Positions 43,124-62,252 of a stretch of 62,252 nt of DNA are shown piece after piece (within the stretch, counting starts at the first letter, position 1; each line of letters starts with the position of its first letter). The translations under genes were made by a program, and so were the position numbers. The DNA comes from a virus (Duplodnaviria > Caudoviricetes): positions 1 through 62,252 of IMG/VR virus record IMGVR_UViG_3300036790_000814; one strand, written 5' to 3'. Under the pieces are notes generated by a model. That model was not told where the DNA came from. It did no database searches and saw only the letters and a list, made by a program, of their open reading frames with translations.

Positions 43124-43152
43124 TTGTACGAGCTGCAAGTCCGCAGTACAAT
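43124..43152 (+). promoter_or_regulatory. Putative promoter TTGTAC-N17-TACAAT, whose hexamers also form the inverted repeat TTGTAC-N16-GTACAA
   Basis: Seen directly upstream of the HTH-ardC operon. Confidence 0.6.
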
Positions 43153-43196
43153 GGCCGCTCTTTCCCCGCTCGCTGTTTATCTAAGTTTTCTCGACT

Positions 43197-43571
43197 ATGT
43201 GCGTTGCCTCCATGAGTGCGAAAGTTGCCCAAAATCCCAGAAAGCGCGCTCCGATGAGTCAGGCGCAGCGCGATAAGCTCTCCGCCTCCCAAAGGGCTTA
43301 CGTTCAGAACGATCCACGCTGGGAAGAACATCGGCGCAAGCTGGCCGAAGCGCAGATTTGCCGCCGCATGACGCTTTTGCCCAATGAGGTCGAATTGATC
43401 CAGTCGCTGCGCCATAGGGGACGGACGTTCTCGTACATCGAGCAAGAGATCGGCGTTTGTGGCGAAGTGATCGGGCGCGAGCTGAAGGCAATGGGCATCC
43501 ATACCGGATGCGTGCGCCCTGGCCACAGGGCCAAGCGGGGGAAGGGGTTCTGGCGTTCGTTCGATGAATGA
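43197..43571 (+). CDS. HTH-containing hypothetical protein
   Basis: LR..G.TFS.IEQEIGV..EVI.REL; overlaps the ardC start. Confidence 0.6.
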   Translation: MCVASMSAKVAQNPRKRAPMSQAQRDKLSASQRAYVQNDPRWEEHRRKLAEAQICRRMTLLPNEVELIQSLRHRGRTFSYIEQEIGVCGEVIGRELKAMGIHTGCVRPGHRAKRGKGFWRSFDE

Positions 43572-44496
43572 GATCAAAACCCAAAGGGCCGACGTGTATG
43601 ACCGCGTGACGGCAAAAATCATCGAGTTTCTTGAAGCTGGCGCCCCGCTCTGTGAGCGATTGTGGATTGGCGGCCCTCCCTCCATTCCCCTCCGGGTCAA
43701 CAACAAGGCATATCGGGGCATAAACCAATTAGTGCTTTTCGTCGGCGCCATTGAGAACGGCTACGGCTTGGGCCACTGGCTTACCTACAAATCAGCCAAG
43801 GGCCTCGGCGGCCAGGTGCGCAAAGGCGAGAAGGGCGAACTGGTCGTCTATGCCGATTCGTTCATCAAGCCCGTCGAAAACAAGAATACCGGCGAGACGG
43901 AAGATCGGGAGCTGTGGTTCCTCAAGGGATACACGGTCTTCAACGCGCAGCAGATCGACGGCCTGCCCGCCGCATTCTATCAACGCCCAACCATCAAGCT
44001 GATGGAGAAGCCGGAAAAGCTGGAAGCCGTAAAGCGCTTCGTTGCCAACACGGGCGCGAAGATCATCGACGGTGGCACGCAGGCTTTCTACCGGCCATCA
44101 ACCGATGAGATCCACATGCCGGACTATGAGCGGTTTACGAGCCGCGAGGCATGGCATAGCGTGGAACTCCACGAACTCGGCCATTGGTGCGCCCATTCGA
44201 GCCGTCTCAACCAGCCTCTCGGCGGTGACAAGCGCAGCAAAGCTTATGGGATCGAGGAACTGAATGCTGAGATAACGAGTGCGTTCCTTTGTGCGTCATT
44301 GGAAATCACGCCGGAAGTCCGAACCGACCATTCAGCTTACTTGGCTGCTTGGTTGGGCATTCTCCGAGAGGATAATCGTGCAATCTTTGCTGCCGCTAGG
44401 GAGGCGCAACGGCGGACTGATTATCTGTTCGGTCTGCAACCTGGTCGCCCTCAGGAAGACGGCGGCGGTTCCGACGCGCCTGACGATCCGGCATGA
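43564..44496 (+). CDS. ardC: ArdC-family ssDNA-binding antirestriction protein with zincin-like domain
   Basis: YD.VT..II..LE.G...W; YRGIN; W.TY..A...GGQVRKGEKG; YTVFN..Q; AFY.P..D.I.MP; HELGHW; EEL.AE. Confidence 0.93.
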   Translation: MNEIKTQRADVYDRVTAKIIEFLEAGAPLCERLWIGGPPSIPLRVNNKAYRGINQLVLFVGAIENGYGLGHWLTYKSAKGLGGQVRKGEKGELVVYADSFIKPVENKNTGETEDRELWFLKGYTVFNAQQIDGLPAAFYQRPTIKLMEKPEKLEAVKRFVANTGAKIIDGGTQAFYRPSTDEIHMPDYERFTSREAWHSVELHELGHWCAHSSRLNQPLGGDKRSKAYGIEELNAEITSAFLCASLEITPEVRTDHSAYLAAWLGILREDNRAIFAAAREAQRRTDYLFGLQPGRPQEDGGGSDAPDDPA

Positions 44497-44807
44497 GCCA
44501 GGACGCCTTCGACCGGATGGTGGCCCGATTCCGTGCACGGATGGCGCACCTGCGCGAAACCCACGCCCGCCAAGGCTACCTCTATGCCGAGCACCAGAAG
44601 GATTCCGGCTATGCCATCCTGTTGACGCCGGAGCCGTCCGGCGACGCAACCTGGCGCGTAACCTCGTTCCAAGCCGGCCAGCCGATCGGGCACCGGCAGT
44701 ACGATGTCCTGGAAGGCCGCGGCCCGGCGTTCAACGCCTTGCAGGAGTTCGCTGGGACGAATTGGCGCCTGGTGCAGAGATACTGGCCGCCGACTGACCC
44801 GACTTAG
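44493..44807 (+). CDS. Hypothetical protein (104 aa)
   Basis: ATGA-coupled to ardC. Confidence 0.65.
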   Translation: MSQDAFDRMVARFRARMAHLRETHARQGYLYAEHQKDSGYAILLTPEPSGDATWRVTSFQAGQPIGHRQYDVLEGRGPAFNALQEFAGTNWRLVQRYWPPTDPT

Positions 44808-44810
44808 CGC

Positions 44811-45338
44811 TCAACCGGTCGAGTAGAAGAGGCGGATTGCACGAACCGCGATAGAAGGCACCATGCGGAACATGGTGGTGATGAGGCGATAGCGACATAT
44901 CCACACCCCCTTCGTGGCGCCGAATGTCTTTACCAGCGTCGCAAGCTCCTCATGGTGGTCGCCGAGATACTCGTCAATCCGGCCTTTCGGCGCGGTGAGG
45001 GCGATCAGCATTTCGCATCCGCCAAGTTGAGGAATCTGGACGAGCCGTGGTCTGAGGAAGTTGGGGTGAGCGAAACCGCTCCCAGGCGCCAACGATCTGC
45101 GGCCGTGATGCTTGACTTGGATAAACGTACCGGCGGCGACAGCATCCGGCTTTCCCTCGTTCTCCTCGAAGCTGTCCAGCAATATCAGGTTCCCAAGATC
45201 TGCAGACAGTGCTGTGTCGAAGGCTCTCAGATGGTCTGCATCGAGATGTGTCAGAAAGACACGGGTGATGGCATCGACGCTGACGGTGTTGTCCCGACCA
45301 CCATCCTTACCGTTCATCAGCCGCGAGAAGAGGCTCAC
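44811..45338 (-). CDS. Hypothetical protein coupled to PadR
   Basis: GTGA overlap with the padR-family stop. Confidence 0.6.
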   Translation of the reverse strand: MSLFSRLMNGKDGGRDNTVSVDAITRVFLTHLDADHLRAFDTALSADLGNLILLDSFEENEGKPDAVAAGTFIQVKHHGRRSLAPGSGFAHPNFLRPRLVQIPQLGGCEMLIALTAPKGRIDEYLGDHHEELATLVKTFGATKGVWICRYRLITTMFRMVPSIAVRAIRLFYSTG

Positions 45339-45655
45339 GAAAGGCCTCCCGCGGCCACCAAGCCGCTCTGGAACCGGCTTGCGAACCTCTCGGCGGCCAA
45401 CTGACCAGGCGCTTCGATCCGGTACAGCCGCTTCCGCCTTCCGCCGCGCTCGGCCGTTCCCTCAGTCCACCAGGACGAAATCATCCCCTTGGCTTCCAGC
45501 CTCTCCAGCGCCGTGTAGACGGAACCCAGGCTTACCTTGCGTTCCAGCCGCGCCTCCAACCTATCCCTGAGCGACAGCCCATAGGCGTCCCGCGGCTGCT
45601 GGATTAGCGAAGCCAGAAGGTCGAACTCGAACGGGCCTATCGAATCACGCGCCAT
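45335..45655 (-). CDS. PadR-family transcriptional regulator
   Basis: AYG..L...L......VSLGSVY..LERLE.KG.I.S......RGGRRKR.Y.I. Confidence 0.9.
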   Translation of the reverse strand: MARDSIGPFEFDLLASLIQQPRDAYGLSLRDRLEARLERKVSLGSVYTALERLEAKGMISSWWTEGTAERGGRRKRLYRIEAPGQLAAERFASRFQSGLVAAGGLS

Positions 45656-45819
45656 GGAAGCTCCTTTAGTCCTGCGATGTAGGACAAATAGGATCGCAAC
45701 CGCCTCGGCGCAAGTGGGCCGGATGACATTTCTATCTTCCGCCGACACCAGATGAGATGGGAAACATCCCACGATTATCCTTGACGCCCTAGGCTCACCC
45801 CTCGCACGATAACCCCATC

Positions 45820-46203
45820 GTGAGCGACCATGAAGGGCTGGCTCTTGGCGTCGCACTGATCGCCGTCGGCATATGGCTTGCCGCACGCCGCCGTCCTGCG
45901 CGTCTGGTCGATCAGACCGTCTTCATCGTCCGCAACCTCAAGAACCTTCTGGCGATTGCGTTCGCGCTTTTTCTGCTGGCTTGGTGGGCCGGGGCCTTCA
46001 GTAATGACCAGGTTGAGCGTTGGTGGGAGCGCTTCTGGGATGAGGCCGCGCGTATCCCGTTCCTGGTCTTCCTTGCCTTCATCGTCGGCGCTCCGGCGGT
46101 CTGGCACTGGATCAACCGGGCGTACACCCTTCGGGGACCGCCGCAGATGCCGCCGCCACGTAGCAAACCCTACGGCTGGCGTAAGCCGGGCAACCGGGTT
46201 TGA
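45820..46203 (+). CDS. Membrane protein (3 predicted TM) coupled to the coupling-protein gene
   Basis: Hydrophobic segments; TTGA overlap with 46200. Confidence 0.7.
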   Translation: MSDHEGLALGVALIAVGIWLAARRRPARLVDQTVFIVRNLKNLLAIAFALFLLAWWAGAFSNDQVERWWERFWDEAARIPFLVFLAFIVGAPAVWHWINRAYTLRGPPQMPPPRSKPYGWRKPGNRV

Positions 46204-47513
46204 ACGTCTGGGCGACCAACGGCGGAATCTATCTCGGCTGCCCGGCGGACAGCCCGCAGGGTGACTGGCGCGGCAACGCTGGCGTCGAGCATCGGTATGA
46301 TGGTGATCGGCACATCCTCCTGCTCGGCCCCAACGGTAGCGGTAAAACAAGGCGTCTGCTCTATCCGAACCTGCTTTCCCTCCAGCGCTGGTCGGTCCTC
46401 GTTGTCGATCCCAAGGGCCTGCTGGCAGGACTGACAATCAACCAGCGTATTGGGACCAAGATCGTCCTCGATCCGTTCAAGGTGACCTCCCTTCCCTCCG
46501 CCGGCTTCAATCCGCTATCGGCACTAAACTCTGCGGACGACACCTTTCCCGATGACTGCCTCGGTATCGCCCGGTCGCTGATTCAGATTGAGGGCTCCGA
46601 ACCGCACTGGTCGGCCTCGGCGCAAGATTGGGTGTGCGCTCTCATCATGTATGAGAAGCTCAAGCATGGTGACGCGGCAACGCTGGTCGGCGTGCGCAAG
46701 AATCTCGGCGGCAGCCAGGCGGATACCCGACAACTCGCGGCAGATATGTGCGTCCTTGGCGACGAGGAAGACTGTGGCGAGCTCGTCATCAAGGCCTCGC
46801 GATTCCTCGATATCAACGAGGAGTCGAAGGAACTGAACAGCATCCTCTCCACCGCTCTAACGCAGACGCGATGGCTGGACAGCCGCCCGATCAAGGCCGA
46901 TTTGAGCGGCGGTACGTTCGATTTCGCGACGATGAAAGACCGTCCGGTCACGGTCTACCTGGTGCTTCCCCCGAACCGCTTGGTCACGCACGGGCCGTGG
47001 CTCCGGCTGATGATTACCGCCGTGCTCCAGCCGCTTTTGCGGGAGGTGAAACCTTCAGCGACGCCCGTCCTGTTCATGCTGGACGAATTTGCCCAGCTCG
47101 GCCATCTGCCGGTGATCGAGGAGAATCTGGCGGTGATGCGCGAGTACGGCGTCAAGCTCTGGCCCGTGTTTCAAGACGTGGCGCAGGGACAGGCGATCTA
47201 CGGCAAGCGCTGGCCATCGTTCCTGAGCAACAGCGGCATTGTCCAAAGTTTCTCGGCCATGGATGTCGATACCGCCGAACTGCTCTCCAAACGCTCGGGG
47301 CAGACATCCGAATGGATCGAGGTGCCTTCCGAAAGCCGAAATCTCGGCCGCGAGTTGAGCCGGTCGGTCAGCGCCGCCGCACAAGTGATCCAACGCCCTG
47401 TCCTCTGGCCGCACGACCTGATGGATATGGATGACGGCTATACCGTCATCTATTCACACCGGGCCAAAGGGCCGGTTTTTGCGTTTGCGCCGTGGCCGTC
47501 CGCCCTTGGCTGA
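46200..47513 (+). CDS. virD4: VirD4/TraG-family type IV coupling protein (no N-terminal TM)
   Basis: H.LL.GPNGSGKT Walker A; VVDPKG; FNPL; FMLDEFAQLG Walker B; R.YGV.LW...Q...Q...YG; TAE..S...G. Confidence 0.9.
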   Translation: MNVWATNGGIYLGCPADSPQGDWRGNAGVEHRYDGDRHILLLGPNGSGKTRRLLYPNLLSLQRWSVLVVDPKGLLAGLTINQRIGTKIVLDPFKVTSLPSAGFNPLSALNSADDTFPDDCLGIARSLIQIEGSEPHWSASAQDWVCALIMYEKLKHGDAATLVGVRKNLGGSQADTRQLAADMCVLGDEEDCGELVIKASRFLDINEESKELNSILSTALTQTRWLDSRPIKADLSGGTFDFATMKDRPVTVYLVLPPNRLVTHGPWLRLMITAVLQPLLREVKPSATPVLFMLDEFAQLGHLPVIEENLAVMREYGVKLWPVFQDVAQGQAIYGKRWPSFLSNSGIVQSFSAMDVDTAELLSKRSGQTSEWIEVPSESRNLGRELSRSVSAAAQVIQRPVLWPHDLMDMDDGYTVIYSHRAKGPVFAFAPWPSALG

Positions 47514-47751: not shown

Positions 47752-49650
47752 TTATCTCCCCCTTCCCCCCCTGTTCTGGCCGCGCTGCGCCTGTTTGGAT
47801 TGGGTCGGGCCGTCCGTAGTCTTCCCTTCGGCCCTGATCTTGTCGATCTTCTCGCGCATCGCGGGCGTGATGTGCCCGCGCTGTTCGTCCTTGCGCTCGT
47901 CGGCCTCAGCCGCCTTCGCCAACGTCTCGCGCGCGGCCGCCAGGTCGGCGCGGGTATGCTGCCCCTGCCCTCCCCGGTTGACCGCGCGCTCGGTCGCCAC
48001 ACCCTCATCGGCCGGTATCGTTCCTTGAGAGAGTTCCTCACGTGGCGCCTTCCGGGCCTCGTGGCCTTCCTGAAGCTTTTGGACCAATTGGGTAGGCAGG
48101 CCGGTGTTGGCCAAATCCTCGCGGAATTTTTCGACAACCCCCTCACGAACCTGTCTGGAAAGCTGCGTTCGGTATTCTCGCAGTTCCTCCGCGTAGCCCT
48201 CGCAGGCGTCGGCTTCCTGCACGGTGGCGATGGCGGACGGGTGATCCATGTTCCGCGTCGCGACCTGAGTGTAAGAGGCAATGCGCCGATCCGTTAGCGC
48301 CCGATATTCGTACCACTCGATATGCCGGTTGGTGCGCAGCAGTTCACGTTGAACGGGATCGGCTTCCTGTGCCTCCTGCCCCCGATACCAGTCTTGCTTT
48401 TCGGCGAAGGCCGCGTACTCGGCGCGCGCGGCGCTCGACAGTACAGTGTAGACATCGGCGGATGTGGTGGAAGCCGACAGCGCGGATGCGTAGCGCGAAT
48501 GCGCGTCGGCCGGTTCCCCGTTTCGCTCCAGCTCGGCGGTATGGCCGTCCCGCGTCCTCTTCCATCGTTCGGCCTCGCGGATCTCCGCCTCGCGCCTGGT
48601 CTCAAACGTCCTGAGTTCTTCGCCGCGCGTCAGTTGGTCCTGAATGAGCGCGGTGCGCTCCGCCCGCAGGTGATCGAGGCGTTCCTGCTGAAGCCGTACC
48701 TGCTTATCGTTGTCGTCGCCGGCCGGAATGTCGGGCCGCCCCGCGAGCCTCGGATCCGCTTCGCGCTTACGCTCGTCCTGGTCGTGTCCGGAGTCATCGC
48801 TCATCCCGCTCCCCTTCCCAGCTCTCTTGCGGCGCTCGTCTTCGAGGATGATGATTTCGGCAGTGAGTTTCGCCTGCTCGGCCTTCAGTTCATTTAGTTC
48901 AGCGTGGTGCCGCCGGTTGCGCGCTTTGACGGCCCGATTGTGCTCGCCGGTCGCCGTCGGCGCCCCGTCGAGCTCGGCCTGGTTCTGTTTGTTCCCCAGA
49001 TGCTTGGTCGGCTCAAGATCGATGCCCTGCTTGTCGTAGGTCTCGTGGGAAACCCGTTCACCGGATCCGATCAGCTCAAGGCGCTCGTTCAACACCGAGG
49101 CGAACATCTTCCGCTGCCAGATGGTTTCCTCAACCCGGGTTTTCTTGTCGGTGATCTCGCGCGCTTTCGCGCCGAACCCCTCCGGCCCGACGCGCCGCAT
49201 GTTGTAGCCGAGATGGATGTGCCAGTTCCGGTCGTCGCCGTGGTCGGTCGGCTTGTGAACCGCCCAAGTGACCATGACGCCATAGCGCTGGCTGATCTCC
49301 CGCGCCATGCGCTGCGCTACGTCGATATGGTCGCTCTCCGCAAACTCCCGCGAACTGGCAAGATTCCAGTGGTTGGCGACGTGGCTATTGATGCGCTTTT
49401 CAGAAGCCTCGACCGCGTTCCAGGCTTTGCCAAGCTGGTCATCATCGGTCAGGTAGGCCTGAGCACCAGACGGTGCGACTGTCCCCCAACCCGACACCTC
49501 ACCCGGATGGTTCCTCTTGCACCAGGTGCCGGTGCGTTCGTCCTTCAGGGTCTCGCCGGTCATGTAGGCCGCAAGGCCAACCGCCGACTTGCCTTCGCTC
49601 CGGCTCACGGCATCGATGTGGGCATGGTACCATGTCACGGGGACGGACAT
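47752..49650 (-). CDS. mobA: MOBQ (MobA/MobL) relaxase with long C-terminal extension
   Basis: YH.....SR..G.SAV..AAY (catalytic Tyr); WN.VE..EKR; AVH......RN.H.H (3H motif); PT.HLG; Arg-rich C-terminus. Confidence 0.92.
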   Translation of the reverse strand: MSVPVTWYHAHIDAVSRSEGKSAVGLAAYMTGETLKDERTGTWCKRNHPGEVSGWGTVAPSGAQAYLTDDDQLGKAWNAVEASEKRINSHVANHWNLASSREFAESDHIDVAQRMAREISQRYGVMVTWAVHKPTDHGDDRNWHIHLGYNMRRVGPEGFGAKAREITDKKTRVEETIWQRKMFASVLNERLELIGSGERVSHETYDKQGIDLEPTKHLGNKQNQAELDGAPTATGEHNRAVKARNRRHHAELNELKAEQAKLTAEIIILEDERRKRAGKGSGMSDDSGHDQDERKREADPRLAGRPDIPAGDDNDKQVRLQQERLDHLRAERTALIQDQLTRGEELRTFETRREAEIREAERWKRTRDGHTAELERNGEPADAHSRYASALSASTTSADVYTVLSSAARAEYAAFAEKQDWYRGQEAQEADPVQRELLRTNRHIEWYEYRALTDRRIASYTQVATRNMDHPSAIATVQEADACEGYAEELREYRTQLSRQVREGVVEKFREDLANTGLPTQLVQKLQEGHEARKAPREELSQGTIPADEGVATERAVNRGGQGQHTRADLAAARETLAKAAEADERKDEQRGHITPAMREKIDKIRAEGKTTDGPTQSKQAQRGQNRGGRGR

Positions 49651-49667
49651 TATTTGCTTCCTGCCTC

Positions 49668-49703
49668 TGCAAACGCGTGCGTTTGCAAAAGTGCGCTAAC
49701 CCT
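49668..49703 (+). other. MOBQ-type oriT: inverted repeat TGCAAACGC-GT-GCGTTTGCA followed by AAAGTGCG^CTAACCCT (predicted nic 49695/49696)
   Basis: Matches the RSF1010/MOBQ architecture IR + TAA(G/A)TGCG^CCCT; lies between divergent mobA and an accessory gene. Confidence 0.78.
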
Positions 49704-50355: not shown

Positions 50356-51033
50356 CTAGTCGCCCATATCCAACATAATCTGGTCTGGTTGGCGCTGCGC
50401 CTTTTCAATGCGAGCGCAGGCGATGTCGAAGTAGCGAGGCTCAATCTCGATTCCGACGAACGCTCTTCCTTTTCGCACGCAAGCAACGCCACATGTGCCG
50501 CTGCCCATGAACGGGTCGCACACCGTTTCCCCCTCGTCCGAAAACCAGTTCACCAGCCATTCCTGATGTATGAGGGCGCGGCTGCACGGATGGCCGTTCG
50601 GCGGCCTGTCGCCCGGCTGTGCTTTAGGTGAGACGCTTGGGATCACCCGACGTCCGGGGCTGCTTCTCACCGGCTTCCCGAAAACATAGGCCGTCTCGTT
50701 CCCGCCGAGAACGCGGCCGAGGTATCCCGGCATGACGTACTGGCACCATGCCATTTGCTGGAACGGAAGCCGGTCGGAGACGTGCCGCAGAACGCGCGGG
50801 TCGCTGTCGTTTCTCATGCACACTACGAGTTGCCGGAGTTCAGCCGGAAGGGACTGGCAGAAATCTGCAAACAGGCCGTCAGGATCTTCCCACCCCGCCA
50901 AAAGGCCAGTCGGACAGTTCGGCCAAACTGGGTCAGTGATGATCGCCTGTATGCCGGTCAGAACCTTCAAGAGATCGAGCGCGTCACCAAGATAGAGGGT
51001 GCAATTGCCGATAGTTTCCTTGTTGGGAGGCAC
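50356..51033 (-). CDS. Orphan beta-class DNA methyltransferase with variant motif IV (DPVW)
   Basis: TLYLGD; IITDPVW; HP; V.DPFMGSGT.GVA......F.GIE....YFDIAC.RI. Confidence 0.85.
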   Translation of the reverse strand: MPPNKETIGNCTLYLGDALDLLKVLTGIQAIITDPVWPNCPTGLLAGWEDPDGLFADFCQSLPAELRQLVVCMRNDSDPRVLRHVSDRLPFQQMAWCQYVMPGYLGRVLGGNETAYVFGKPVRSSPGRRVIPSVSPKAQPGDRPPNGHPCSRALIHQEWLVNWFSDEGETVCDPFMGSGTCGVACVRKGRAFVGIEIEPRYFDIACARIEKAQRQPDQIMLDMGD

Positions 51034-51071
51034 GTCACAGTCGCTCTCTCCCGCCTTGGCGGGTGTGGTGG

Positions 51072-51284
51072 TCAATCGGCTAGTAAAACCTCTGCATCTG
51101 GATTCAGGCGGCGGATCTCCGAAAGCACGGTTTCCGGCTTGACCTGTTCGGTGAACGCGGTCGGGATTCCGGTGGTGCCGAATAGCTCCTGTATCTCGGC
51201 GGCAAGGCGTCCGCGTCGATGGTAAGCCATCCAGCAATTGGCCTCGCACTTCAGCAGGATGTTCGGTGCCTTGCGTTCCGTCAC
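51072..51284 (-). CDS. Hypothetical protein (70 aa)
   Basis: LFGT..IPTAF motif; coupled ORF. Confidence 0.6.
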   Translation of the reverse strand: MTERKAPNILLKCEANCWMAYHRRGRLAAEIQELFGTTGIPTAFTEQVKPETVLSEIRRLNPDAEVLLAD

Positions 51285-51841
51285 GGATAGACCAGCGGCG
51301 TGAGTGTTCCCGGCAGGTAGAGCGGGTGCTCGGGCGTGCCACTAGCCAGCCGTAAATACCTCAGCTCGGCACCAGCATTTCTCAGCATCAGAATCACATC
51401 AGCAGCGCGCGCACGCAATGACAGGCTTGGCGGTTGGCCATACGCCAACACGACGATTTCAGACCGCGCAGCCATTGCAAGAATTGCCTCGTCGTTGCCC
51501 GGGCCGATAGGATCATCCGGATCACGAAGCCCAAATCTGTTTTGGTCAACATATGCGTGCATGTTGCCGACCAGTTGGCCGCCGTATTGCCATCTGCGAG
51601 CGAAGTTGCCGGTTCGTGTCAGAGTCCTATCGGCGTGCTCAACACACGCCACTGACGGGTTCATCATCAGGAACATCACTAGGGGCCTCGTGGCATCCCA
51701 TATTTCCGACAGCTCATAGCGATAGAGTCCGCATTCGGAAAACCTGGGGGTTACCACAGAGTCATTCGGCCACCGCGGGGGAGGTCGCCTACGTCGAGGC
51801 GCTGCACCCAATAAGTCGGCGGCGGTCGGTATGGTTGTCAT
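51281..51841 (-). CDS. DUF1643-family protein
   Basis: FS.CG.YRY.L...W.......F.M.NPS.A....D.T.......W.YGG....N...P.HPLY. Confidence 0.85.
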   Translation of the reverse strand: MTTIPTAADLLGAAPRRRRPPPRWPNDSVVTPRFSECGLYRYELSEIWDATRPLVMFLMMNPSVACVEHADRTLTRTGNFARRWQYGGQLVGNMHAYVDQNRFGLRDPDDPIGPGNDEAILAMAARSEIVVLAYGQPPSLSLRARAADVILMLRNAGAELRYLRLASGTPEHPLYLPGTLTPLVYP

Positions 51842-52056
51842 CGCCATCCTGGTGGTGGTCCTTCCGACAGGATCAGCCGGGCTAGGCCCTCGTTCGCCCC
51901 TCCGGCGCTCGACATGGCGGACTTTTCCCAGCCTTTGGCGCTGCGAACGATAATCATCCGACCGTCGACCGCGTAGCTGCCGAGCTTCTCCATGGTGTCC
52001 CTATCCACCACGTCATTCCAGTAAAGCGGCTCCGTGCGCTTCGGTCTTCTGGCCAT
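51838..52056 (-). CDS. Hypothetical protein (72 aa)
   Basis: GGAGG RBS; ATGA coupling. Confidence 0.6.
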   Translation of the reverse strand: MARRPKRTEPLYWNDVVDRDTMEKLGSYAVDGRMIIVRSAKGWEKSAMSSAGGANEGLARLILSEGPPPGWR

Positions 52057-53388: not shown

Positions 53389-53712
53389 TCAAGCCGGTGC
53401 AAAGGTGTGCTTTCTAGCTTTCTGCTGTTTCCCTCGAATCAGCCGTTCATAAGCGGCATCAATGCTCACGTCCGGCGCGATGGATACACCGCTGGTAGAA
53501 ATGCCGCCGCGTGCGGAGGGGAGGGCGGGGATTCTGGATGTCGCCCGCTCTGCGGCCCCAATCCATGCGTCAATCTTGTTGGGATCGAACGTCCAGACAC
53601 CTCCGAGCTTGGCGGCTCCGGGTATCTTGCCTAATGCGGCGAGAGATTGAACCTGTCGAAGCGATAGGCTTGTCCGATTTACAACATCTGTGGGGCGGAT
53701 GCGGTCACTCAC
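53389..53712 (-). CDS. Excisionase-like HTH protein
   Basis: LS.RQVQ.LA..GKIPGA.K.G..W.FD...I.AWI. Confidence 0.7.
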   Translation of the reverse strand: MSDRIRPTDVVNRTSLSLRQVQSLAALGKIPGAAKLGGVWTFDPNKIDAWIGAAERATSRIPALPSARGGISTSGVSIAPDVSIDAAYERLIRGKQQKARKHTFAPA

Positions 53713-53797: not shown

Positions 53798-53812
53798 GGC
53801 AACATTGTTGCT
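53798..53812. promoter_or_regulatory. Palindromic operator-like site, copy 3 (GGCAACATTGTTGCT)
   Basis: Same 13-bp core; 86 bp upstream of the excisionase-like gene. Confidence 0.8.
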
Positions 53813-56174: not shown

Positions 56175-56189
56175 AGCAACATTGTTGCT
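56175..56189. promoter_or_regulatory. Palindromic operator-like site, copy 4
   Basis: AGCAACATTGTTGCT in AT-rich intergenic DNA. Confidence 0.8.
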
Positions 56190-56483: not shown

Positions 56484-58343
56484 CTACCCAGCTTGCATGA
56501 TCGGCGGTAACCAGCCCCGCCCTTTCAGCTCGGCAGAAATTGCCTTCGCCATCGGCTCCCGCTTCATAGCTTCGATGCCCTTGCGCTTTGCTGGCGGGAT
56601 TGCTCCATCAAGCTCGGCCAGCAACGCGGCTTTCGGCACTCGGCTGAAGTAGCTCTCTGCGTTCGCCGTCCAGTGCTTCCCCATGTCGAGCTTCAACGCC
56701 TTGGTGAGTTCGGCGGATGAGTCCTTCGCCTCGGCTCCGTTCGACTGCACCACGTCGATGGTGAGCGCGGCACACACGGCCAGAAGCCCCTGCACGGTGG
56801 CCGCGTTCTGCTCCGCCATCCAGCCCCACAAGTCCTCCGGCTTCTTCGGCAGTTTTTTCTGCCAAGCCTTCACGATACCGGCCAGCTTCTTCCCCGCCGC
56901 CGATTTCTCCACCTGCTCGTTGATCGCCAAGGGATAGTTCGTTTCGTGCGGGTTGATGCCCAAGCTGCTATGCTCTCCGCCGAGCTGGTAAAGCAGTTTC
57001 AGCGCGAGGACGTGGGTCACGGCCAGCAATCCCACCTTGGGGTTACCCGCCATCTCCACCTGAGCCGCCACATTCTTCTGGCTGGTCAGTTCCGCGACCA
57101 GCGCCGCCGACAGGCCGCCCTTGGCCTTCTCCGGCTTCGCTGCGCCATTACCGCTCTGCTCGGCCCCGTTCGCGCCGTGCGCCAGCTTACGGGCTGCTCC
57201 CTTGTCCTCAGGCTTCACCAGACCCTGCAAGACAGAAGCCTCGCCATTATGCCCGATGGTGACCAGAACGCCGCCGACGGCCATCTGCGCCAGCGTATAG
57301 ACGGGTTCGCCATCGGATAGCTCGTCGATCTGCTGGTACAGGTCACCAAGGCGCTCGGCGGCAGCTTCGTCGTCCGGCTCCTCCCCATGCTTCTTCATGA
57401 TCTTGTCGGCCTCGGCCTGTAGCGCGGCTATCTTCGCGCTCGTTTCCTCGTCCGGCTCCGCCCGGCCTGGTTGCAGGTGTCCGAAGGCGTTCTTCTGCTC
57501 ATAGGGCAGGTTGGGGATAACCTCGACCCATTTCCAGCCTATGCTTCTGAAAGCTATGGCGGCGGCGGTAAGCTTCTCCTCGGCCAGCCGGTTCACCAGC
57601 GCGGAGTCGGTCAACCATCCTTCCCCTTTGTCGGCAAACAGATCTCGCGTGATGCCGCCACCGGCCTTCTCATAGGCTTCGAGCGTCACGAACTTTGCGA
57701 TGGCACTATCAGCTTCCACCTGCTCGTTGGTCAGCGCGGCGCGTATCTGGTCGGCCCTGCCGTTGCCCTTCGCCCAATCCGGGAGGTCGCGCCAGACTTT
57801 CTCCTGCTTTTTCCTGTCCGACTCGATGGTGAAAGCCGTCACTTGGTCAAACGACATCTCGCCCTTCTCGAAAATGGTGATGAGCTTGGGGCTGACCGTC
57901 GTGGCGATTTTCAAGAACTGGTTCACATGGCGAAGCGGGGCAACAAGCTTTGCGGCTATCGTCTCAGGGCCATCGCCTTGATCGTTCAGTTTTTTGATGG
58001 CGTTCCATTGGTCTATTGGATGCATTTCGACGCGAGTTATGTTTTCAACCAAGCTGGTCTCAACCAATGTGGGATCGTTCGCATCCCGCACCTCGCACGG
58101 AACCAGATAGTCACCAGTTATTTTTTTCTGCTTAAGCAGCAGCTGCATGGCGGCAAGGCGAGTCCCCCCGATGACCACGCCAAATTTTTCACCTTCAACG
58201 GGATGGACACGCAGATTTTGGATCACACCGTGCTGTTCGATGCTGCGAGCAAACTCCTCGATGGTTTCCTTGGGGCGGATTTTTCTGACATTCAGGTCGG
58301 ACAGAACGAGGCTGCTCAGAGGGATGTTTTGTATCTCAGACAT
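56484..58343 (-). CDS. Long plasmid-type ParB/RepB/Spo0J-family protein (619 aa)
   Basis: IPLS.L..S..NVRK; SI...G.IQNL.V; V..GG.RL.A; SL.EN..R..MHP.DQ; Y..AGG....DLF; W......YF.RV.K. Confidence 0.88.
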   Translation of the reverse strand: MSEIQNIPLSSLVLSDLNVRKIRPKETIEEFARSIEQHGVIQNLRVHPVEGEKFGVVIGGTRLAAMQLLLKQKKITGDYLVPCEVRDANDPTLVETSLVENITRVEMHPIDQWNAIKKLNDQGDGPETIAAKLVAPLRHVNQFLKIATTVSPKLITIFEKGEMSFDQVTAFTIESDRKKQEKVWRDLPDWAKGNGRADQIRAALTNEQVEADSAIAKFVTLEAYEKAGGGITRDLFADKGEGWLTDSALVNRLAEEKLTAAAIAFRSIGWKWVEVIPNLPYEQKNAFGHLQPGRAEPDEETSAKIAALQAEADKIMKKHGEEPDDEAAAERLGDLYQQIDELSDGEPVYTLAQMAVGGVLVTIGHNGEASVLQGLVKPEDKGAARKLAHGANGAEQSGNGAAKPEKAKGGLSAALVAELTSQKNVAAQVEMAGNPKVGLLAVTHVLALKLLYQLGGEHSSLGINPHETNYPLAINEQVEKSAAGKKLAGIVKAWQKKLPKKPEDLWGWMAEQNAATVQGLLAVCAALTIDVVQSNGAEAKDSSAELTKALKLDMGKHWTANAESYFSRVPKAALLAELDGAIPPAKRKGIEAMKREPMAKAISAELKGRGWLPPIMQAG

Positions 58344-58379
58344 TGATCGTCTCTTTCTCTCGCGAACGCGAGCTTCGGG

Positions 58380-59087
58380 TTAAACTGCACGTTTCAAAGG
58401 CTTTGCGGCGGGATAGAGAGCTTCGGCGACAGGAATGCCCTGCCTCAATCTATGCCGTAGGGTGAAGGGGTTGATTCCGACGAGGCTTGCAATATCCGAT
58501 GCAGGAAGCAATTCACCGTTGAACTCGTATAGCTTGGTGCAACGCCTGTTATTAACGTTCTGCTTGCGAGTCACCCATCGGCAATTCTCAGGGCTATAGT
58601 CATCGTCATTGTCGATGCGGTCGATCTGTAGATCGTCCCGATAGCCGTGCGCCAATGCCCATTTGGCAAATGCCATGAAGTCTCTGAGCCAGAGGTCACT
58701 AATCTTGATGCCGCGCCCCCCGTAGTCATGATAGGACAGGTCGCTTTTATTATAGCATCTAGTCTTCATGCCTCGCCAAGTCTTATAAAGGCGCGTCTTG
58801 GACATACCGTGTGTGGTGAGCTTCGCCGCCCCGATAGTCCTTAGTTGTTTAAGGCGAAAGCACCCGCAGCTAGTCACCTCGCCGGATACCATGGGGCGTG
58901 CCCCGACCAGCTTGACGTTCCCGCAATCACAAGCACAAACCCAAGTGGAAACATGCTTGTTCATGTGACTGTAGGACACGACGAAAAGACGGCCATACTT
59001 GTGGCCGGTAAGGTCAGATTTGAGATGCCTTGTTTCTGTTGACCTGAGGTTCCGATATGGAACGGTGATGCATTGAATGGTGGTCAC
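58380..59087 (-). CDS. HNH homing-endonuclease-like protein
   Basis: C.CDCGN; SCGC; HGMS.TRLY..W..MK.RC; YGGRGI; IDRIDND..Y.P.NCRW. Confidence 0.85.
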   Translation of the reverse strand: MTTIQCITVPYRNLRSTETRHLKSDLTGHKYGRLFVVSYSHMNKHVSTWVCACDCGNVKLVGARPMVSGEVTSCGCFRLKQLRTIGAAKLTTHGMSKTRLYKTWRGMKTRCYNKSDLSYHDYGGRGIKISDLWLRDFMAFAKWALAHGYRDDLQIDRIDNDDDYSPENCRWVTRKQNVNNRRCTKLYEFNGELLPASDIASLVGINPFTLRHRLRQGIPVAEALYPAAKPLKRAV

Positions 59088-59127
59088 AGTTGGTAGGCTT
59101 TCTCCCCGCTAGGCGGGGCGTTTGGGG

Positions 59128-59331
59128 TTAGGCTTCAATTCCGAATGCGTGTTCCCAGCCTTCTGTGCCGAAAAAGTCGTCCTCTGACAGACTATCGAGG
59201 CACTCCTGCGTCAACATGAGCAAGAGTTCTTTCGCGCTGTCTGGGTTGCTCTCGACATGCTTCTTCAGCCCGTCGCAGATTTGGTTGATGGCTTCCGCTG
59301 CTCCTGCGTCCGACATTTTTTCGATGTTCAT
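59128..59331 (-). CDS. Hypothetical protein (67 aa)
   Basis: LD.L...DFFGTEGW motif. Confidence 0.6.
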   Translation of the reverse strand: MNIEKMSDAGAAEAINQICDGLKKHVESNPDSAKELLLMLTQECLDSLSEDDFFGTEGWEHAFGIEA

Positions 59332-59442
59332 GGCTGAAATCTTTCTGCCCTTGTGGGCGGTTGATTGATTCTTGGCCCCGCAGGGCATAGGCATTCGCAA
59401 AACCACCCTAGCAATACATCACGGTAATGCAACAGGAAATAG

Positions 59443-59457
59443 AGCAACAATGTTGCC
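59443..59457. promoter_or_regulatory. Palindromic operator-like site, copy 5 (AGCAACAATGTTGCC, reverse orientation)
   Basis: Reverse complement equals copy 3. Confidence 0.8.
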
Positions 59458-59561
59458 ATTTCCGGCCTATGCGCCCGTTACCCTCTTGACTGGAATCGTC
59501 TTCTCCTGCTCAGGCACATTCTTGGTCGGATCGCTCAGACGGCATTTTGGGCTAACACACA

Positions 59562-60428: not shown

Positions 60429-60464
60429 CCTTGCGTCAGCAGTCTGGTCGACCAGCCCAGTCCC

Positions 60465-60890
60465 CTATGTAACGCTCTTGAACTTATTCGAGCCGTGTCC
60501 AGTATGATCTGTCAGAGGTTCATCAACATCTTTAATGACATTGCCTGATTTATCGCGAATGAACTCGCGGGCTCGCCTGGTGTCACGATTTATCTCATAC
60601 TCCCGATAAACATAATCGCCCTGTGAGCGTCTTATTTCCCAACCGGATTTGAACGTTATCCGCAGCTTGTCCTTACTGCGCCGCGAATTGTCCTTGGCCT
60701 TAAAACTGATATGATCGCGGACAATGATCGGCAGGTCCTTGATGGGGGGGAGCGTGATATGCTGCTTGGCCGGGCCGCACATGGGGCACAGGCTTGCCGG
60801 ATGCCCTGCTTCTGACCCTTCCTCCGTCAGCACTTGTCCGCAGACACCGCATTGAATGACGTCGCTGTCGTTCATTGGCTGTGTTCTCAC
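60465..60890 (-). CDS. Zn-ribbon hypothetical protein
   Basis: CGVC...CPMC; R.I.R.....E.........EPL..H.GHGS. Confidence 0.6.
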   Translation of the reverse strand: MRTQPMNDSDVIQCGVCGQVLTEEGSEAGHPASLCPMCGPAKQHITLPPIKDLPIIVRDHISFKAKDNSRRSKDKLRITFKSGWEIRRSQGDYVYREYEINRDTRRAREFIRDKSGNVIKDVDEPLTDHTGHGSNKFKSVT

Positions 60891-61087
60891 TTTAGTATGC
60901 CTTGGACGTTATAGCCCAGCCGGATCTCCTCTTCAGTCTGGACGAGCCGGGCCTCGGCCTCCGGATTGCCGTCACGCAGCGCGTAGCTTCGGTAGCAATG
61001 CCAGCAGCAGACCAAGCCTTTGTCTTTCGGCCCTCCGCACAATGGGCAAATCAGGCTGGCGCGAAGACGCGGATGAGCGTTATCCAC
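60887..61087 (-). CDS. Small Cys-rich protein
   Basis: CPLCGG.K..G.VCCW.CY; GGAG RBS. Confidence 0.6.
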   Translation of the reverse strand: MDNAHPRLRASLICPLCGGPKDKGLVCCWHCYRSYALRDGNPEAEARLVQTEEEIRLGYNVQGILK

Positions 61088-61190
61088 TCCAGCCCTCCAA
61101 TTCTCTTCGCCCTCGTTGCGTCGGGCAAGTCGTATGGACTTTTGACCATGGTGAGATAGACTCGCGATCGAAAGCTGCGGAGCGGGAACC

Positions 61191-62252
61191 GTGCCGAAAG
61201 CTGGCTACCTTTACAAGCGCGGAGATACCTATTGGGGCCGAGTCCGTCTGGCCGGACGGGAGCACAGGCGCAGCTTACGAACGTCTGATGCCCGGGAAGC
61301 TGCCAGGCGACTCAAGGCGTGGCGGCTCAAGGTTGAGCGCGCGGTTGTGGCGGATCCCGACTCCCCGACCTTCAAGGCAGCGGTGGTCAAATGGGCAGAA
61401 GAAGTCCTGCCAAAATCGGTGAAGCCTGCCGTCATGCGGCGCTATCTGACCAGCATTGCGCAACTCGACCCTGTCTTTGGCCCGCTCCGCATTGGTGAGG
61501 TCAACACGGCCAAAATCAGCGAGTATGTGAGCCTCCGCACACGCACAACCAGCAATGCCACCATACGCAGGGACTTGACGGCCCTCTCGCGCCTGATGGC
61601 GGCTTGCGTGGCATGGGGATGGCGCGATGATAACCCTGTGCGCCTATATGACCGTAGCGTTGTCCTGCGCGAACGCCGGGAGCCGATTGAGCCGCCTGGT
61701 GAGGATGATTTCCAGCGCGTGCTGGCTGCCGTTCCTGAGGCAATGGCGAAGGTGCTGCGGCTCCTCGACCAGACCGGCATGCGCGAGAATGAAGCGGTCG
61801 TCCTGACGGCAAGCGACGTGAACAAGGAACGGAAGCAAATCACGCTCCTGCGAACCAAGACCAGCCGCCCGCGCACCCTCGATTGGAAGACCCCCGCAGG
61901 GGACGCTACGGACGCGCTGACGGCCGGGGAAGAGAAGGGGGTGCTGTTCCCCTCTCGCAGCGGGAAGCCATACGGCAACTTCGCCAGCGCCTTCGGGGCA
62001 GTCATGCGTCGCGTGGTCGCTGCCGAAAAGAAGGCCAAGCGTCCCTTCCGCCGGTTCCGCGTCCACGATCTCCGCCACGGCTTCGCCATCCGTTGGCTAA
62101 AGAATGGGGGCGGGATATATGAGCTGTCCAAGCACCTTGGACACTCGTCCGTAAAAACGACAGAGGGCTATCTGGGCTACCTGTCTGGGAAGGAACAGAA
62201 ACTTGCACAAACTGGGGCACAGTGGCATGTTGGGTTAGCAGCCGCAGAATGA
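61191..62252 (+). CDS. int: Tyrosine recombinase/phage integrase
   Basis: TGMR..E; TKT; HDLRH; LGH; terminal TEGY catalytic Tyr; N-terminal RRSL.T arm-binding region. Confidence 0.95.
   Translation: MPKAGYLYKRGDTYWGRVRLAGREHRRSLRTSDAREAARRLKAWRLKVERAVVADPDSPTFKAAVVKWAEEVLPKSVKPAVMRRYLTSIAQLDPVFGPLRIGEVNTAKISEYVSLRTRTTSNATIRRDLTALSRLMAACVAWGWRDDNPVRLYDRSVVLRERREPIEPPGEDDFQRVLAAVPEAMAKVLRLLDQTGMRENEAVVLTASDVNKERKQITLLRTKTSRPRTLDWKTPAGDATDALTAGEEKGVLFPSRSGKPYGNFASAFGAVMRRVVAAEKKAKRPFRRFRVHDLRHGFAIRWLKNGGGIYELSKHLGHSSVKTTEGYLGYLSGKEQKLAQTGAQWHVGLAAAE

What the first reader, a model, noticed from the sequence alone, without database searches (positions are those of the whole stretch)
43124..62252. 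Complete myovirus prophage carrying its own conjugative mobilisation kit (MOBQ relaxase, oriT, VirD4 coupling protein, ArdC)
Seen: directly after the endolysin, with no integrase or att-like junction in between, lie ardC, a VirD4/TraG ATPase, a MobA/MobL relaxase and a MOBQ-type oriT. No VirB mating-pair genes are present. Known: relaxase, oriT and T4CP without MPF define a mobilisable element that borrows a host or plasmid T4SS. Inference: the excised phage circle may spread both by virions and by conjugation, bypassing receptor limits and superinfection exclusion. The alternative is a separate integrative mobilisable element next to a prophage. The operator shared by both halves and the single integrase argue against that.
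Basis: partly seen in the sequence, partly recalled or inferred. Interest (0 to 1): 0.92.

Follow-up and report, generated by a model that had tools for sequence, protein, structure and literature searches.

The report
Prophage joined to conjugative mobilisation module
A soil-bacterium prophage with a contractile tail is physically and regulatorily joined to a plasmid-style "hitch-hiking" kit (nicking enzyme, transfer origin, coupling motor), so it might spread by cell contact as well as by virus particles, but whether both parts move as one piece is not settled.

Summary
After the endolysin (42687-43109) come ArdC, a two-gene T4CP (membrane ORF plus ATPase), a MobA/MobL (MOBQ-type) relaxase and an oriT-like site. 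Further on lie a methylase, DUF1643, an Xis-like gene and a ParB-like gene. The record's only integrase lies at its last base. No VirB4 and no second recombinase were found. A 15-bp palindrome occurs five times, twice in the phage early arm and three times in the right arm.

Points for one unit:
- The same kind of module follows the lysis genes in three related phages.
- The Xis-like gene carries the shared operator.
- Close Int/Xis relatives sit at the ends of two phage records where I found no relaxase or T4CP.

Points against:
- The same backbone is a free-standing 24.8-kb att-bounded IME in an alphaproteobacterial MAG.
- The three phage-linked modules are not each other's nearest relatives.
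- The clade's expected genome is about 50 kb, against at least 62 kb here.

The att sites lie outside the record and could not be reached.

I read it as a composite of prophage and IME-type arm under one switch (about 0.5). The closest printed analogue is phage-ICE tandems (Sci Adv 2026). This scan has already reported such prophages on other DNA, including the relative G001.

The parts
3553..5989 (-). Phage early-left recombination genes: RecT-like 3553-4296, HNH 4293-4982, exonuclease 4979-5989
   Evidence: PHROGs, (phrog_561, phrog_826, phrog_412). Homologues 65-70% identical lie in a second island of MAG G003.
1135..1149 (.). Operator palindrome copy 1, upstream of minus-strand genes 1012..1
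6482..6496 (.). Operator palindrome copy 2, in the divergent early switch region between the exo/RecT operon and the 87-aa HTH gene
6583..6846 (+). 87-aa Cro/CI-type HTH protein, the best candidate for the operator-binding regulator (inferred)
   Evidence: Weak Pfam HTH_3 and YdaS hits below the cut-off. It lies about 100 bp from operator copy 2.
18751..43109 (+). Myovirus late region from terminase to endolysin
   Evidence: PHROGs. Syntenic at 50-80% amino-acid identity with G001 and G006.
43110..43196 (.). 87-bp junction between the endolysin and the first gene of the arm. No recombinase, no repeat partner, no tRNA fragment.
43197..43571 (+). HTH-like small protein. A 62.6% identical homologue lies beside a relaxase/T4CP locus without phage genes (L003).
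43564..44496 (+). ArdC (ArdcN plus zincin metallopeptidase, HELGH present)
45335..45886 (-). PadR-family regulator
   Evidence: PF03551, 5.4e-12.
45820..46203 (+). Membrane subunit of the split T4CP (127 aa, 3-4 hydrophobic segments). Overlaps the T4CP start by 4 nt.
   Evidence: The same two-gene layout occurs in L002, L005, G001 and G006.
46200..47513 (+). T4CP ATPase (VirD4/TraG family), without its own N-terminal anchor
   Evidence: PF02534 5e-59, PF12696, PF10412. Walker A and B motifs.
47752..49650 (-). MobA/MobL (MOBQ-type) relaxase, 632 aa
   Evidence: HxDDxNxHxH motif. Family of 39 database proteins, nearest 50% identical.
49668..49700 (+). oriT-like site: inverted repeat plus AAGTGCGC. 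The nick inferred between 49695 and 49696 rests on recalled RSF1010 data.
50356..51847 (-). N6/N4 DNA methylase and DUF1643
   Evidence: The same pair follows an integrase right after the lysis genes in the phage relative L019, where I found no relaxase or T4CP.
53389..53712 (-). Xis-like HTH protein, first gene downstream of operator copy 3. Cognate partner of the integrase.
   Evidence: Weak HTH_17 hit. 53-54% homologues lie directly upstream of the 61-62% identical integrases in L053 and L054.
53798..53812 (.). Operator palindrome copy 3
56175..56189 (.). Operator palindrome copy 4
56484..58343 (-). 619-aa protein with a ParB N-terminal domain, conserved with G001 (38%) and the G003 IME (47%)
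59443..59457 (.). Operator palindrome copy 5
61191..62252 (+). Tyrosine integrase, the only recombinase in the record. Its stop codon is the last base of the record.

Best explanation
This is a composite element. A temperate contractile-tailed phage carries, between its lysis genes and its own Xis/Int lysogeny module, an IME-type mobilisation arm. The arm holds an oriT, a MOBQ-type relaxase, a two-subunit T4CP, ArdC and a ParB-like protein.

Proposed mechanism:
- One repressor binds the palindrome AGCAACATTGTTGCT. It is probably the 87-aa HTH protein next to the early switch.
- In lysogeny this repressor silences five leftward promoters. They drive the phage recombination operon, the left-end genes, the Xis-like gene with methylase and DUF1643, a block of small ORFs, and the ParB-like operon.
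- Loss of repression turns on phage early genes and Xis together, so Int/Xis excise a circle that contains both phage and arm.
- The relaxase then nicks oriT, and the T4CP hands the strand to a type IV secretion system supplied by another element.
- The stretch 49.7-59.4 kb would enter first. All its genes read from the transferred strand, as in a plasmid leading region.

Shown: gene content, intact motifs, oriT conservation, the shared operator, the cognate Int/Xis pair and recurrence in relatives.

Inferred: which protein binds the operator, co-excision, the nick position, use of a helper T4SS, and whether the enlarged genome still fits the capsid.
For: 1. Five operator copies span both arms, and 0 of 100 shuffles reach the observed count. 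In all five the flanking sequence fits a leftward promoter.
2. The Xis-like gene 53389-53712 is the first gene after operator copy 3. Its homologues (53-54%) lie directly upstream of integrases 61-62% identical to this one in two IMG/VR phage records. Family searches found no relaxase and no T4CP in either record. So Int and Xis are a cognate, phage-type pair that brackets part of the arm.
3. The 43.1-kb junction has no recombinase, no repeat of 14 bp or more and no tRNA fragment.
4. Among the 6 closest phage relatives (baseplate 59-66% identical), 3 extend more than 2 kb past the late genes, and all 3 carry arm genes there. G001 has T4CP, relaxase, ArdC and ParB-like; G006 has T4CP; G004 has the ArdC N-terminus. 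The other 3 end at or before the endolysin.
5. In all of IMG/VR this T4CP family was found only in G001 and G006. The scans state that this window's own record may be left out.
6. The relative L019, in which I found no relaxase or T4CP, has an integrase followed by DUF1643 and a methylase directly after its lysis genes. So those right-arm genes look native to the phage.
7. The left-end gene 434-1012 and the arm gene 44493-44807 both have homologues in one mobilisation locus, L005, where I found no phage genes.
8. All minus-strand gene calls between 49.8 and 59.4 kb agree with the leading-region logic. That logic is recalled, not tested.
Against: 1. A free-standing 24.8-kb IME in MAG G003 has the same backbone: int, xis-like, ParB-like, ArdC, relaxase and a T4CP remnant. 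It has clear imperfect direct repeats of about 130 bp at the 5' end of a VOC-family gene and no late genes. The arm is therefore a kind of element that can stand alone.
2. Phage-linked modules are not monophyletic. The window's T4CP is nearest to L003 (48.5%) and G006's to L002 (57%), while G001's is 36-41% identical to all others. In the relaxase tree the window and G001 sit far apart (quick tree, many forks open). The phage structural proteins are 50-80% identical. This points to repeated docking or exchange rather than one inherited genome.
3. Completeness figures for 5 fragments imply a clade genome of about 50 kb (my arithmetic). The composite is at least 62 kb here. In G001 the span from integrase to endolysin is 52.7 kb, with the arm outside it.
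4. In G001 the integrase lies at the other end of the phage, and I found no operator shared by its two arms.
5. More distant relatives showed no arm genes: L032, L025, L022 and others, plus G242 and G245.
6. The left end of the record lies inside a leftward operon, so a second integrase further left cannot be excluded.
Confidence: 0.5

Rival explanations
1. These are two elements in tandem. An ordinary prophage of about 50 kb has its own integrase lying left of the record. Beside it sits an autonomous IME of about 19 kb (43.1-62.3 kb) with its own Int/Xis. The provirus caller merged them. The IME carries operators for the phage repressor and so senses induction of its neighbour, as a satellite does, but it excises and transfers on its own.
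For: - The G003 IME has the same backbone and is att-bounded.
- The modules are polyphyletic while the phage genes are conserved.
- The expected clade genome is about 50 kb.
- G001 has a canonical integrase at the far end of the phage, 68% identical to the G003 IME integrase. Integrase types therefore move between phages and IMEs.
- Phage-ICE tandems formed by accretion are documented (PMC13651849; abstract and sections 3 and 11 read).
Against: - The 43.1-kb junction shows no repeat, tRNA fragment or recombinase.
- The IME's integrase would lie at the end away from the phage.
- The operator also controls phage recombination genes, so a separate IME would need to have evolved the phage's exact operator three times.
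- DUF1643, methylase and integrase are native to the phage in relative L019.
- The left-end gene 434-1012 belongs to the gene pool of mobilisation loci.
Confidence: 0.27
2. The arrangement is nested. The phage is inserted into a larger mobilisable or conjugative island, or that island's parts flank the phage. The arm and the DNA left of the record would then belong to one older element.
For: - In G001 the 12 kb left of the phage integrase hold a resolvase, SSB, an HATPase protein and an HTH. These are not housekeeping genes.
- L003 links T4CP, the HTH homologue and a resolvase.
- Phage::ICE and ICE::Phage nestings are reported in PMC13651849 (section 11).
Against: - I found no att-like repeats at either phage end in G001.
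- The gene order of the G003 IME does not match 'G001 minus phage' once orientation is considered (my reading).
- The flanks of this window are unknown.
Confidence: 0.1
3. The relaxase, oriT and T4CP have been co-opted for a phage function. One option is initiation of rolling-circle replication, since HUH relaxases are related to rolling-circle initiators. Another is DNA handling. Conjugation would not be involved.
For: No replication initiator, helicase or primase was recognised among the early-right ORFs tested: 0 of 7 by Pfam and 0 of 10 by PHROGs.
Against: - Failing to recognise replication genes is weak evidence, because most early ORFs have no family at all.
- The module has the full signature of conjugative mobilisation, including ArdC and a T4CP with a TraG-D_C domain.
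- It also occurs in loci where I found no phage genes.
Confidence: 0.05

Closest known systems
Integrative and mobilisable elements (IMEs) that encode relaxase, oriT and their own T4CP but no mating-pair system (reviewed in PMC5704250, seen only as a search listing and abstract start). The concrete example found here is the 24.8-kb IME in MAG G003.
   Same: Integrase, Xis-like gene, MOBQ-type relaxase, oriT, T4CP, ArdC and ParB-like protein, with no VirB4. The G003 element shares the ParB-like protein (47%), ArdC (47%) and the relaxase (37%).
   Different: Here the module is contiguous with a complete set of myovirus late genes and shares an operator with the phage early region. Its att boundaries are not visible. 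The G003 IME has clear att repeats and no phage late genes.
Phage-ICE tandems, including ICE::Phage and Phage::ICE (Huang et al., Sci Adv 2026, PMC13651849; abstract and sections 3 and 11 read)
   Same: A prophage is physically joined to a conjugation-type element. A phage integrase is proposed or shown to excise the composite, and conjugative functions then move it.
   Different: Those partners are full ICEs with mating-pair systems, are formed by accretion at shared att sites, and were studied in Streptococcus. Here there is only relaxase plus T4CP, no internal att was found, and one operator spans both parts.
Phage-plasmids carrying an oriT or relaxase (Ares-Arroyo et al., NAR 2022, PMC10123127; passages read)
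   Same: A phage genome that also carries determinants of conjugative mobilisation.
   Different: Those are extrachromosomal, and such cases are described there as rare exceptions. This element has an integrase, and I found no plasmid replication gene or ParA.
RSF1010/R1162 MobA-oriT, the MOBQ prototype
   Same: MobA_MobL fold family, a three-histidine motif, and an oriT made of an inverted repeat followed by AAGTGCGC.
   Different: The C-terminal 400 aa have no recognised primase domain. After the motif the sequence reads CTAACCCT. The T4CP is encoded by the element itself and is split into two genes.
G001 (IMGVR_UViG_3300047160_036126), already followed up in this scan (e1-6002788)
   Same: Same phage clade (portal 72%, head protein 80% identical). 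T4CP, relaxase, ArdC and ParB-like lie directly after the lysis genes.
   Different: Its mobilisation proteins are only 34-39% identical to this window's. Its integrase is of another type and lies at the other end of the phage. ArdC lies on the other side of the relaxase, and I found no shared operator.

Membership tests
IME (integrative mobilisable element) | Relaxase with an intact catalytic motif | tested here: met
   PF03389 at 3.4e-33. HGDDRNWHIH at residues 137-146.
IME (integrative mobilisable element) | Cognate oriT | tested here: met
   Inverted repeat plus AAGTGCGC lies 18 bp upstream of the relaxase start. The layout recurs in 5 of 6 loci, this window included, with differing repeat sequences. 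Nicking was not tested.
IME (integrative mobilisable element) | No mating-pair formation genes | tested here: met
   0 matches to PF03135 in the record. No ORF longer than 640 aa. Other VirB families were not searched one by one.
IME (integrative mobilisable element) | Own integration and excision module | tested here: met
   Integrase 61191-62252. Xis-like 53389-53712, paired with such integrases in L053 and L054.
IME (integrative mobilisable element) | Discrete element bounded by att repeats that excludes the phage | tested here: inconclusive
   No repeat or tRNA fragment at 43.1 kb. The integrase-proximal att lies outside the record and the flanks could not be fetched.
VirD4/TraG-type T4CP | T4SS-DNA_transf / TrwB nucleotide-binding domain with Walker A and B motifs | tested here: met
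   PF02534 5e-59, PF12696 1.3e-23, PF10412 1.9e-15. GPNGSGKT and VLFMLDE.
VirD4/TraG-type T4CP | N-terminal transmembrane anchor in the same polypeptide | tested here: not met
   The anchor is a separate overlapping ORF (45820-46203). The same split occurs in L002, L005, G001 and G006, whereas L003 has a fused helix. This is a split variant, not a frameshift.
MOBQ relaxases | MobA_MobL domain, three-histidine motif, and an oriT of the IR-AAGTGCGC type | tested here: met
   The MOBQ label and the RSF1010 nick consensus are recalled. No MOB-typing tool was run.
Phage-ICE tandem (PMC13651849) | Partner is a full ICE with a mating-pair system | tested here: not met
   No VirB4 found.
Phage-ICE tandem (PMC13651849) | Accretion at a shared att site, leaving an internal att between the two modules | tested here: inconclusive
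   None found at 43.1 kb, but the true core sequence is unknown.
Phage-plasmid | Plasmid replication and partition instead of integration | tested here: not met
   An integrase is present. No Rep or ParA family was seen among the ORFs scanned. The ParB_N-domain proteins have no ParA partner.
Complete tailed (myovirus-type) temperate phage | Terminase, portal, head, sheath, baseplate, fibres, lysis and lysogeny genes | tested here: met
   The record is listed as a provirus with completeness 100. No replication genes were recognised. Viability was not tested.

The most novel reading that the evidence does not exclude
A temperate phage lineage has two routes of horizontal spread wired to a single lysis-lysogeny switch. 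Loss of one repressor would derepress three things at once: phage early genes, the cognate excisionase, and a leading-region-like anti-defence operon next to oriT. The same excised circle of at least 62 kb would then be a substrate both for packaging and for export through a borrowed type IV secretion system. Conjugative entry would bypass receptor limits. The phage clade would renew this kit by repeatedly swapping it with free IMEs.
Probability: 0.2. Interest if true: 0.85.

Novelty: new variant of a known kind. Interest (0 to 1): 0.58.

Why it matters
If phage and arm leave the chromosome as one circle, this phage could reach cells that lack its receptor through another element's mating pore. 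Induction of a prophage and conjugative transfer would then share one switch. That blurs the boundary between transduction and conjugation in soil Alphaproteobacteria.

It would also extend the recently described phage-ICE tandems to helper-dependent (IME-type) partners.

Even if the two parts are separate elements, an IME carrying its neighbour phage's operator would be a new form of cross-talk, comparable to phage satellites.

- Comparable composites are now in print.
- This scan has already reported several, including a relative of this phage.
- The key point, common boundaries, remains untested.

Tried and rejected
1. Circular or permuted record: there is no terminal overlap, and the integrase ORF ends exactly at the last base. 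Rejected.

2. T4CP frameshift or pseudogene: rejected. The same 'membrane ORF plus ATPase ORF' layout occurs in four other loci.

3. A 16-bp exact repeat in G001 (12078 and 77065) as an att pair: about 0.08 such matches are expected by chance (my arithmetic). There is no flanking similarity, and the test join gave only an uninformative open frame. Not used.

4. att-like repeats at G001's lysis/T4CP junction: none of 12 bp or more.

5. A 16-nt match between the attP-flank of L053 and window 43078-43093: 28 of 200 random windows score as high, and no tRNA-like sequence lies beside it. Chance.

6. The window's operator, or an analogous shared palindrome, in relatives:
- No copy of the motif in 11 and later 45 loci.
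- No multi-copy palindrome or shared word spanning both arms of G001 or within the G003 IME.

7. DNA similarity of the arm to known phages or plasmids: no match in 'phages', and one 43-bp match in 'plasmids'.

8. Genome searches around G003:
- 4 of 244 genomes of its order have a related baseplate gene, all more distant (43-48% identical). None has this T4CP or relaxase family on the same contig.
- 22 of 401 genomes sampled from the class have T4CP matches at E <= 1e-50. Of the 4 best that I checked, 0 had a baseplate match.

9. Sequencing runs: one holder was listed, probably the source, kept as contigs. No RNA holder was listed. Depth is flat by construction, and the four listed joints have sides of 20-22 nt and were treated as noise. 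By my arithmetic the Logan contig stops 73 nt past the integrase stop and, at the other end, at about 17.5 kb near the phage tRNA-Met. I take this only as a hint of a repeat or tRNA there.

10. The genome search missed the weak integrase of L019 that hmmscan found. 'No match' rows from those family scans are therefore soft.

11. Literature: searches did not turn up a printed description of an integrated prophage with relaxase plus T4CP and a shared operator. This is not proof of absence.

12. Not used: structure prediction, fold search, complex prediction, the search of protein representatives and the protein-atlas search.

Full report
WHAT THE RECORD IS

The window is a whole 'virus record', a provirus cut out of a larger contig at gene boundaries. 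It begins with the reverse complement of a stop codon and ends with the TGA of the integrase gene. It has no terminal overlap. The database lists its relaxase on a contig of 92,382 bp. The attachment sites therefore lie outside what I could read. This limits every statement about boundaries.

CHECK OF THE OBSERVATION

PHROGs and Pfam confirm a contractile-tailed phage.
- Early, leftward genes: RecT-like, HNH and exonuclease (3.5-6.0 kb). Also a methyltransferase (14.5-16.2 kb).
- Two tRNA genes at 17.5 kb.
- Late genes: large terminase, portal, scaffold-like, major head, sheath, baseplate, fibre, fibre assembly, spanin-like ORFs, and an endolysin at 42687-43109.
- The record is listed with completeness 100.

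After an 87-bp gap the arm follows.
- HTH-like ORF, ArdC, a 104-aa ORF, a 175-aa ORF and a PadR regulator.
- A 127-aa membrane ORF, then the T4CP ATPase.
- The MobA/MobL relaxase, convergent with the T4CP.
- An N6/N4 methylase, DUF1643, an Xis-like HTH, several small ORFs, a 619-aa ParB_N protein and an HNH endonuclease.
- A 288-aa ORF with no family match, and a tyrosine integrase.

Catalytic motifs are intact. Whole-record family searches found no VirB4, one tyrosine integrase and no serine recombinase.

The T4CP is split, not broken. The membrane ORF overlaps the ATPase ORF by 4 nt. The same two-gene layout occurs in L002, L005, G001 and G006.

THE oriT

Eighteen bases upstream of the relaxase start lies a perfect 9-bp inverted repeat with a 2-nt loop, followed by AAGTGCGC. 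The same layout lies upstream of the relaxase genes of G001, L002 and L003, and in looser form in L006. It is absent from L005. The inverted-repeat sequences differ between loci while the adjacent word is kept. That is the pattern expected of a real relaxase recognition site. The nick position (49695/49696) and the label MOBQ rest on my recollection of RSF1010. I did not test them.

THE SHARED OPERATOR

AGCAACATTGTTGCT or a close variant occurs at 1135, 6482, 53798, 56175 and 59443. None of 100 shuffles reached the observed count. All five copies lie between genes. The flanks on the minus strand are similar enough to suggest that each overlaps a leftward promoter.

The promoters would drive:
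- the left-end genes 1012..1, whose operon runs off the record;
- the exo/HNH/RecT operon;
- the Xis-like gene, followed by a 308-aa ORF, DUF1643 and the methylase;
- a block of small ORFs;
- the 92-aa ORF, HNH and ParB-like genes.

The only regulator gene next to a copy is the 87-aa HTH gene at 6583 (weak HTH_3 hit). I infer that it is the binding protein.

RELATIVES OF THE PHAGE

A baseplate alignment found 22 IMG/VR loci.

G001 is a 77.6-kb provirus. It is syntenic from terminase to fibre at 50-80% identity. After its own VanY-like endolysin and an HNH gene come a membrane ORF, T4CP, relaxase, ArdC and a ParB-like gene, at 34-39% identity to the window's.

G006 is a 40.7-kb provirus. It has a T4CP 2.4 kb after its endolysin, and the record is cut right there.

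G004 (L012) has an ArdC N-terminus at its contig end, 3.5 kb after the fibre gene.

Of the six closest relatives, three extend beyond the late region, and all three carry arm genes. The other three stop at or before the endolysin. In IMG/VR this T4CP family was found only in G001 and G006, and the relaxase family only in G001. These scans state that the window's own record may be left out.

More distant relatives (baseplate 43-55% identical) show no arm genes in the sequence available. One of them, L019, has an integrase directly after its lysis genes, followed by DUF1643 and a methylase. This suggests that the 50-62-kb part of the window's arm is native phage material.

RELATIVES OF THE ARM

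The relaxase family is small: 39 database proteins, the nearest 50% identical, nearly all from metagenomes. Convergent relaxase-T4CP pairs occur in L002, L003 and L005 and, with only a T4CP remnant, in L006. I saw no phage late genes within 7-10 kb of them.

In MAG G003 the module lies in a 24.8-kb element bounded by imperfect direct repeats of about 130 bp. The repeats duplicate the ribosome-binding site and the first codons of a VOC-family gene. The element carries an integrase (68% identical to G001's), an xis-like ORF, ParB-like, ArdC, the relaxase and a T4CP remnant. It has no late genes. The arm's backbone is therefore an autonomous IME type.

The phage-linked modules are not each other's nearest relatives.
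- The window's T4CP is closest to L003 (48.5%) and G006's to L002 (57%). G001's is 36-41% identical to all the others.
- In the relaxase tree the window pairs with P0002, far from G001. This was the quick method, with 8 of 23 inner forks open.

THE RECOMBINATION MODULE

Integrases 61-62% identical to the window's lie at the ends of two other IMG/VR phage records (30.5 and 40.1 kb). Family searches found no relaxase and no T4CP in either. In both, a 53-54% homologue of the window's Xis-like gene sits directly upstream of the integrase.

So Int (61.2 kb) and Xis-like (53.4 kb) are a cognate pair of a kind that ordinary phages use, and Xis carries the shared operator. This search covered only viral records, so it cannot show that IMEs lack such integrases.

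In L053 a fragment like the 3' part of a tRNA-Ser lies about 100 bp after the integrase gene. I named that tRNA by eye; ARAGORN called no tRNA in L053. The window has no such fragment apart from the phage's own tRNA-Ser(CGA) gene. A 16-nt match at 43078 is chance.

By my arithmetic, a Logan contig from the one run that holds this DNA stops 73 nt after the integrase stop. That fits a repeat or tRNA there, but it is only a hint. The same contig bridges the 43.1-kb junction, which argues against a chimeric assembly. It probably derives from the same reads as the record.

WEIGHING

One composite unit is favoured by:
- the five operators across both arms, including the Xis promoter;
- the phage-type Int/Xis pair that brackets the arm;
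- the clean junction;
- recurrence at the same place in three relatives;
- the phage-native look of the methylase, DUF1643 and integrase region;
- a left-end gene (434-1012) that belongs to the gene pool of mobilisation loci.

Separate elements are favoured by:
- the free-standing G003 IME;
- the polyphyly of the modules;
- a clade genome size of about 50 kb implied by completeness figures (my arithmetic), against at least 62 kb here;
- the canonical far-end integrase of G001, with its arm lying outside a 52.7-kb phage span;
- the lack of a shared operator in G001.

My reading is that a family of IMEs has repeatedly recombined or docked into the accessory region between lysis genes and lysogeny module of this phage clade. 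In this window the result is one regulatory unit, and probably one excision unit (0.5). A tandem of two independent elements is at 0.27, a nested arrangement at 0.1 and a non-conjugative role at 0.05. The remainder is unassigned. Whether the enlarged genome can still be packaged is open and doubtful.

COMPARISON WITH WHAT IS KNOWN

IMEs with relaxase plus T4CP are well known. Phage-ICE tandems, in which a phage integrase excises the composite and ICE conjugation moves it, were described in October 2026: 612 cases in RefSeq, including nested forms (PMC13651849; abstract and sections 3 and 11 read). Phage-plasmids with an oriT are reported as rare (PMC10123127, passages). A paper on satellites that integrate into prophage late genes appeared only in a reference list I saw, and I did not read it.

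My four literature searches did not find an integrated phage with a relaxase/T4CP-only kit under the phage's own operator. I could not see supplements.

This scan's own notes list at least six other genomes with prophages carrying relaxase/T4CP modules. G001 was already followed up with a similar verdict. These are unchecked AI notes, not independent evidence.

VERDICT

I class it as a new variant of a known kind, with interest about 0.58.

Noticed in passing
L041+L006 (MAG G003, contig C8; about 14.4-39.4 kb of my joined stretch that starts at C8:152000): A 24.8-kb integrative mobilisable element bounded by imperfect direct repeats of about 130 bp. The repeats duplicate the start of a VOC/glyoxalase-family gene. 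Its T4CP is reduced to a C-terminal remnant.
   Followed up: partly
window 45820-47513; also L002 5817-5820, L005 13846-13851, L011 5419-7480, L036 652-2698: The T4CP of this family is encoded as two overlapping genes, a membrane protein and an ATPase. One member (L003) still has a fused N-terminal helix.
   Followed up: partly
window 42433-42690: A small ORF matching a PHROG 'toxin' family (phrog_353, E 2.7e-8) sits inside the lysis cassette, just before the endolysin. Weak homologues occur in G001 and L002.
   Followed up: no
window 6500-18800: No replication initiator, helicase or primase was recognised in the early-right region by Pfam or PHROGs. A second ParB-like protein (9113-9934, DUF6551/phrog_1033) and a small protein with a weak Trans_reg_C hit (9880-10305) are 62-73% conserved in G001.
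   Followed up: partly
window 24520-24547 and 24589-24616: An exact 28-bp direct repeat, 69 bp apart, lies at the start of a small ORF after the major head gene.
   Followed up: no
window 17483-17653: The phage carries tRNA-Met(CAT) and tRNA-Ser(CGA) genes just upstream of the terminase region. The Logan contig of the source run appears to break here.
   Followed up: no
window 58380-59087 and 4293-4982; L011 4504-5055: HNH endonuclease genes are scattered in both arms. G001 has an HNH-AP2 gene between its endolysin and its T4CP.
   Followed up: no
L053 11115-11300: After the integrase lies a partial tRNA-Ser-like 3' fragment. It is followed by a second short stretch resembling the 3' end of an integrase gene, which suggests remnants of earlier integrations or an attP arm.
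   Followed up: partly
L008 1-12300 (G001): The 12 kb left of G001's integrase hold a resolvase, SSB, a 568-aa HATPase protein, an HTH and a low-GC membrane protein. This looks like mobile-element or defence cargo rather than host core genes.
   Followed up: partly
window 10864-12786: A 640-aa minus-strand ORF (phrog_5183, unknown function) lies antisense among early genes, next to a 579-aa methyltransferase.
   Followed up: no
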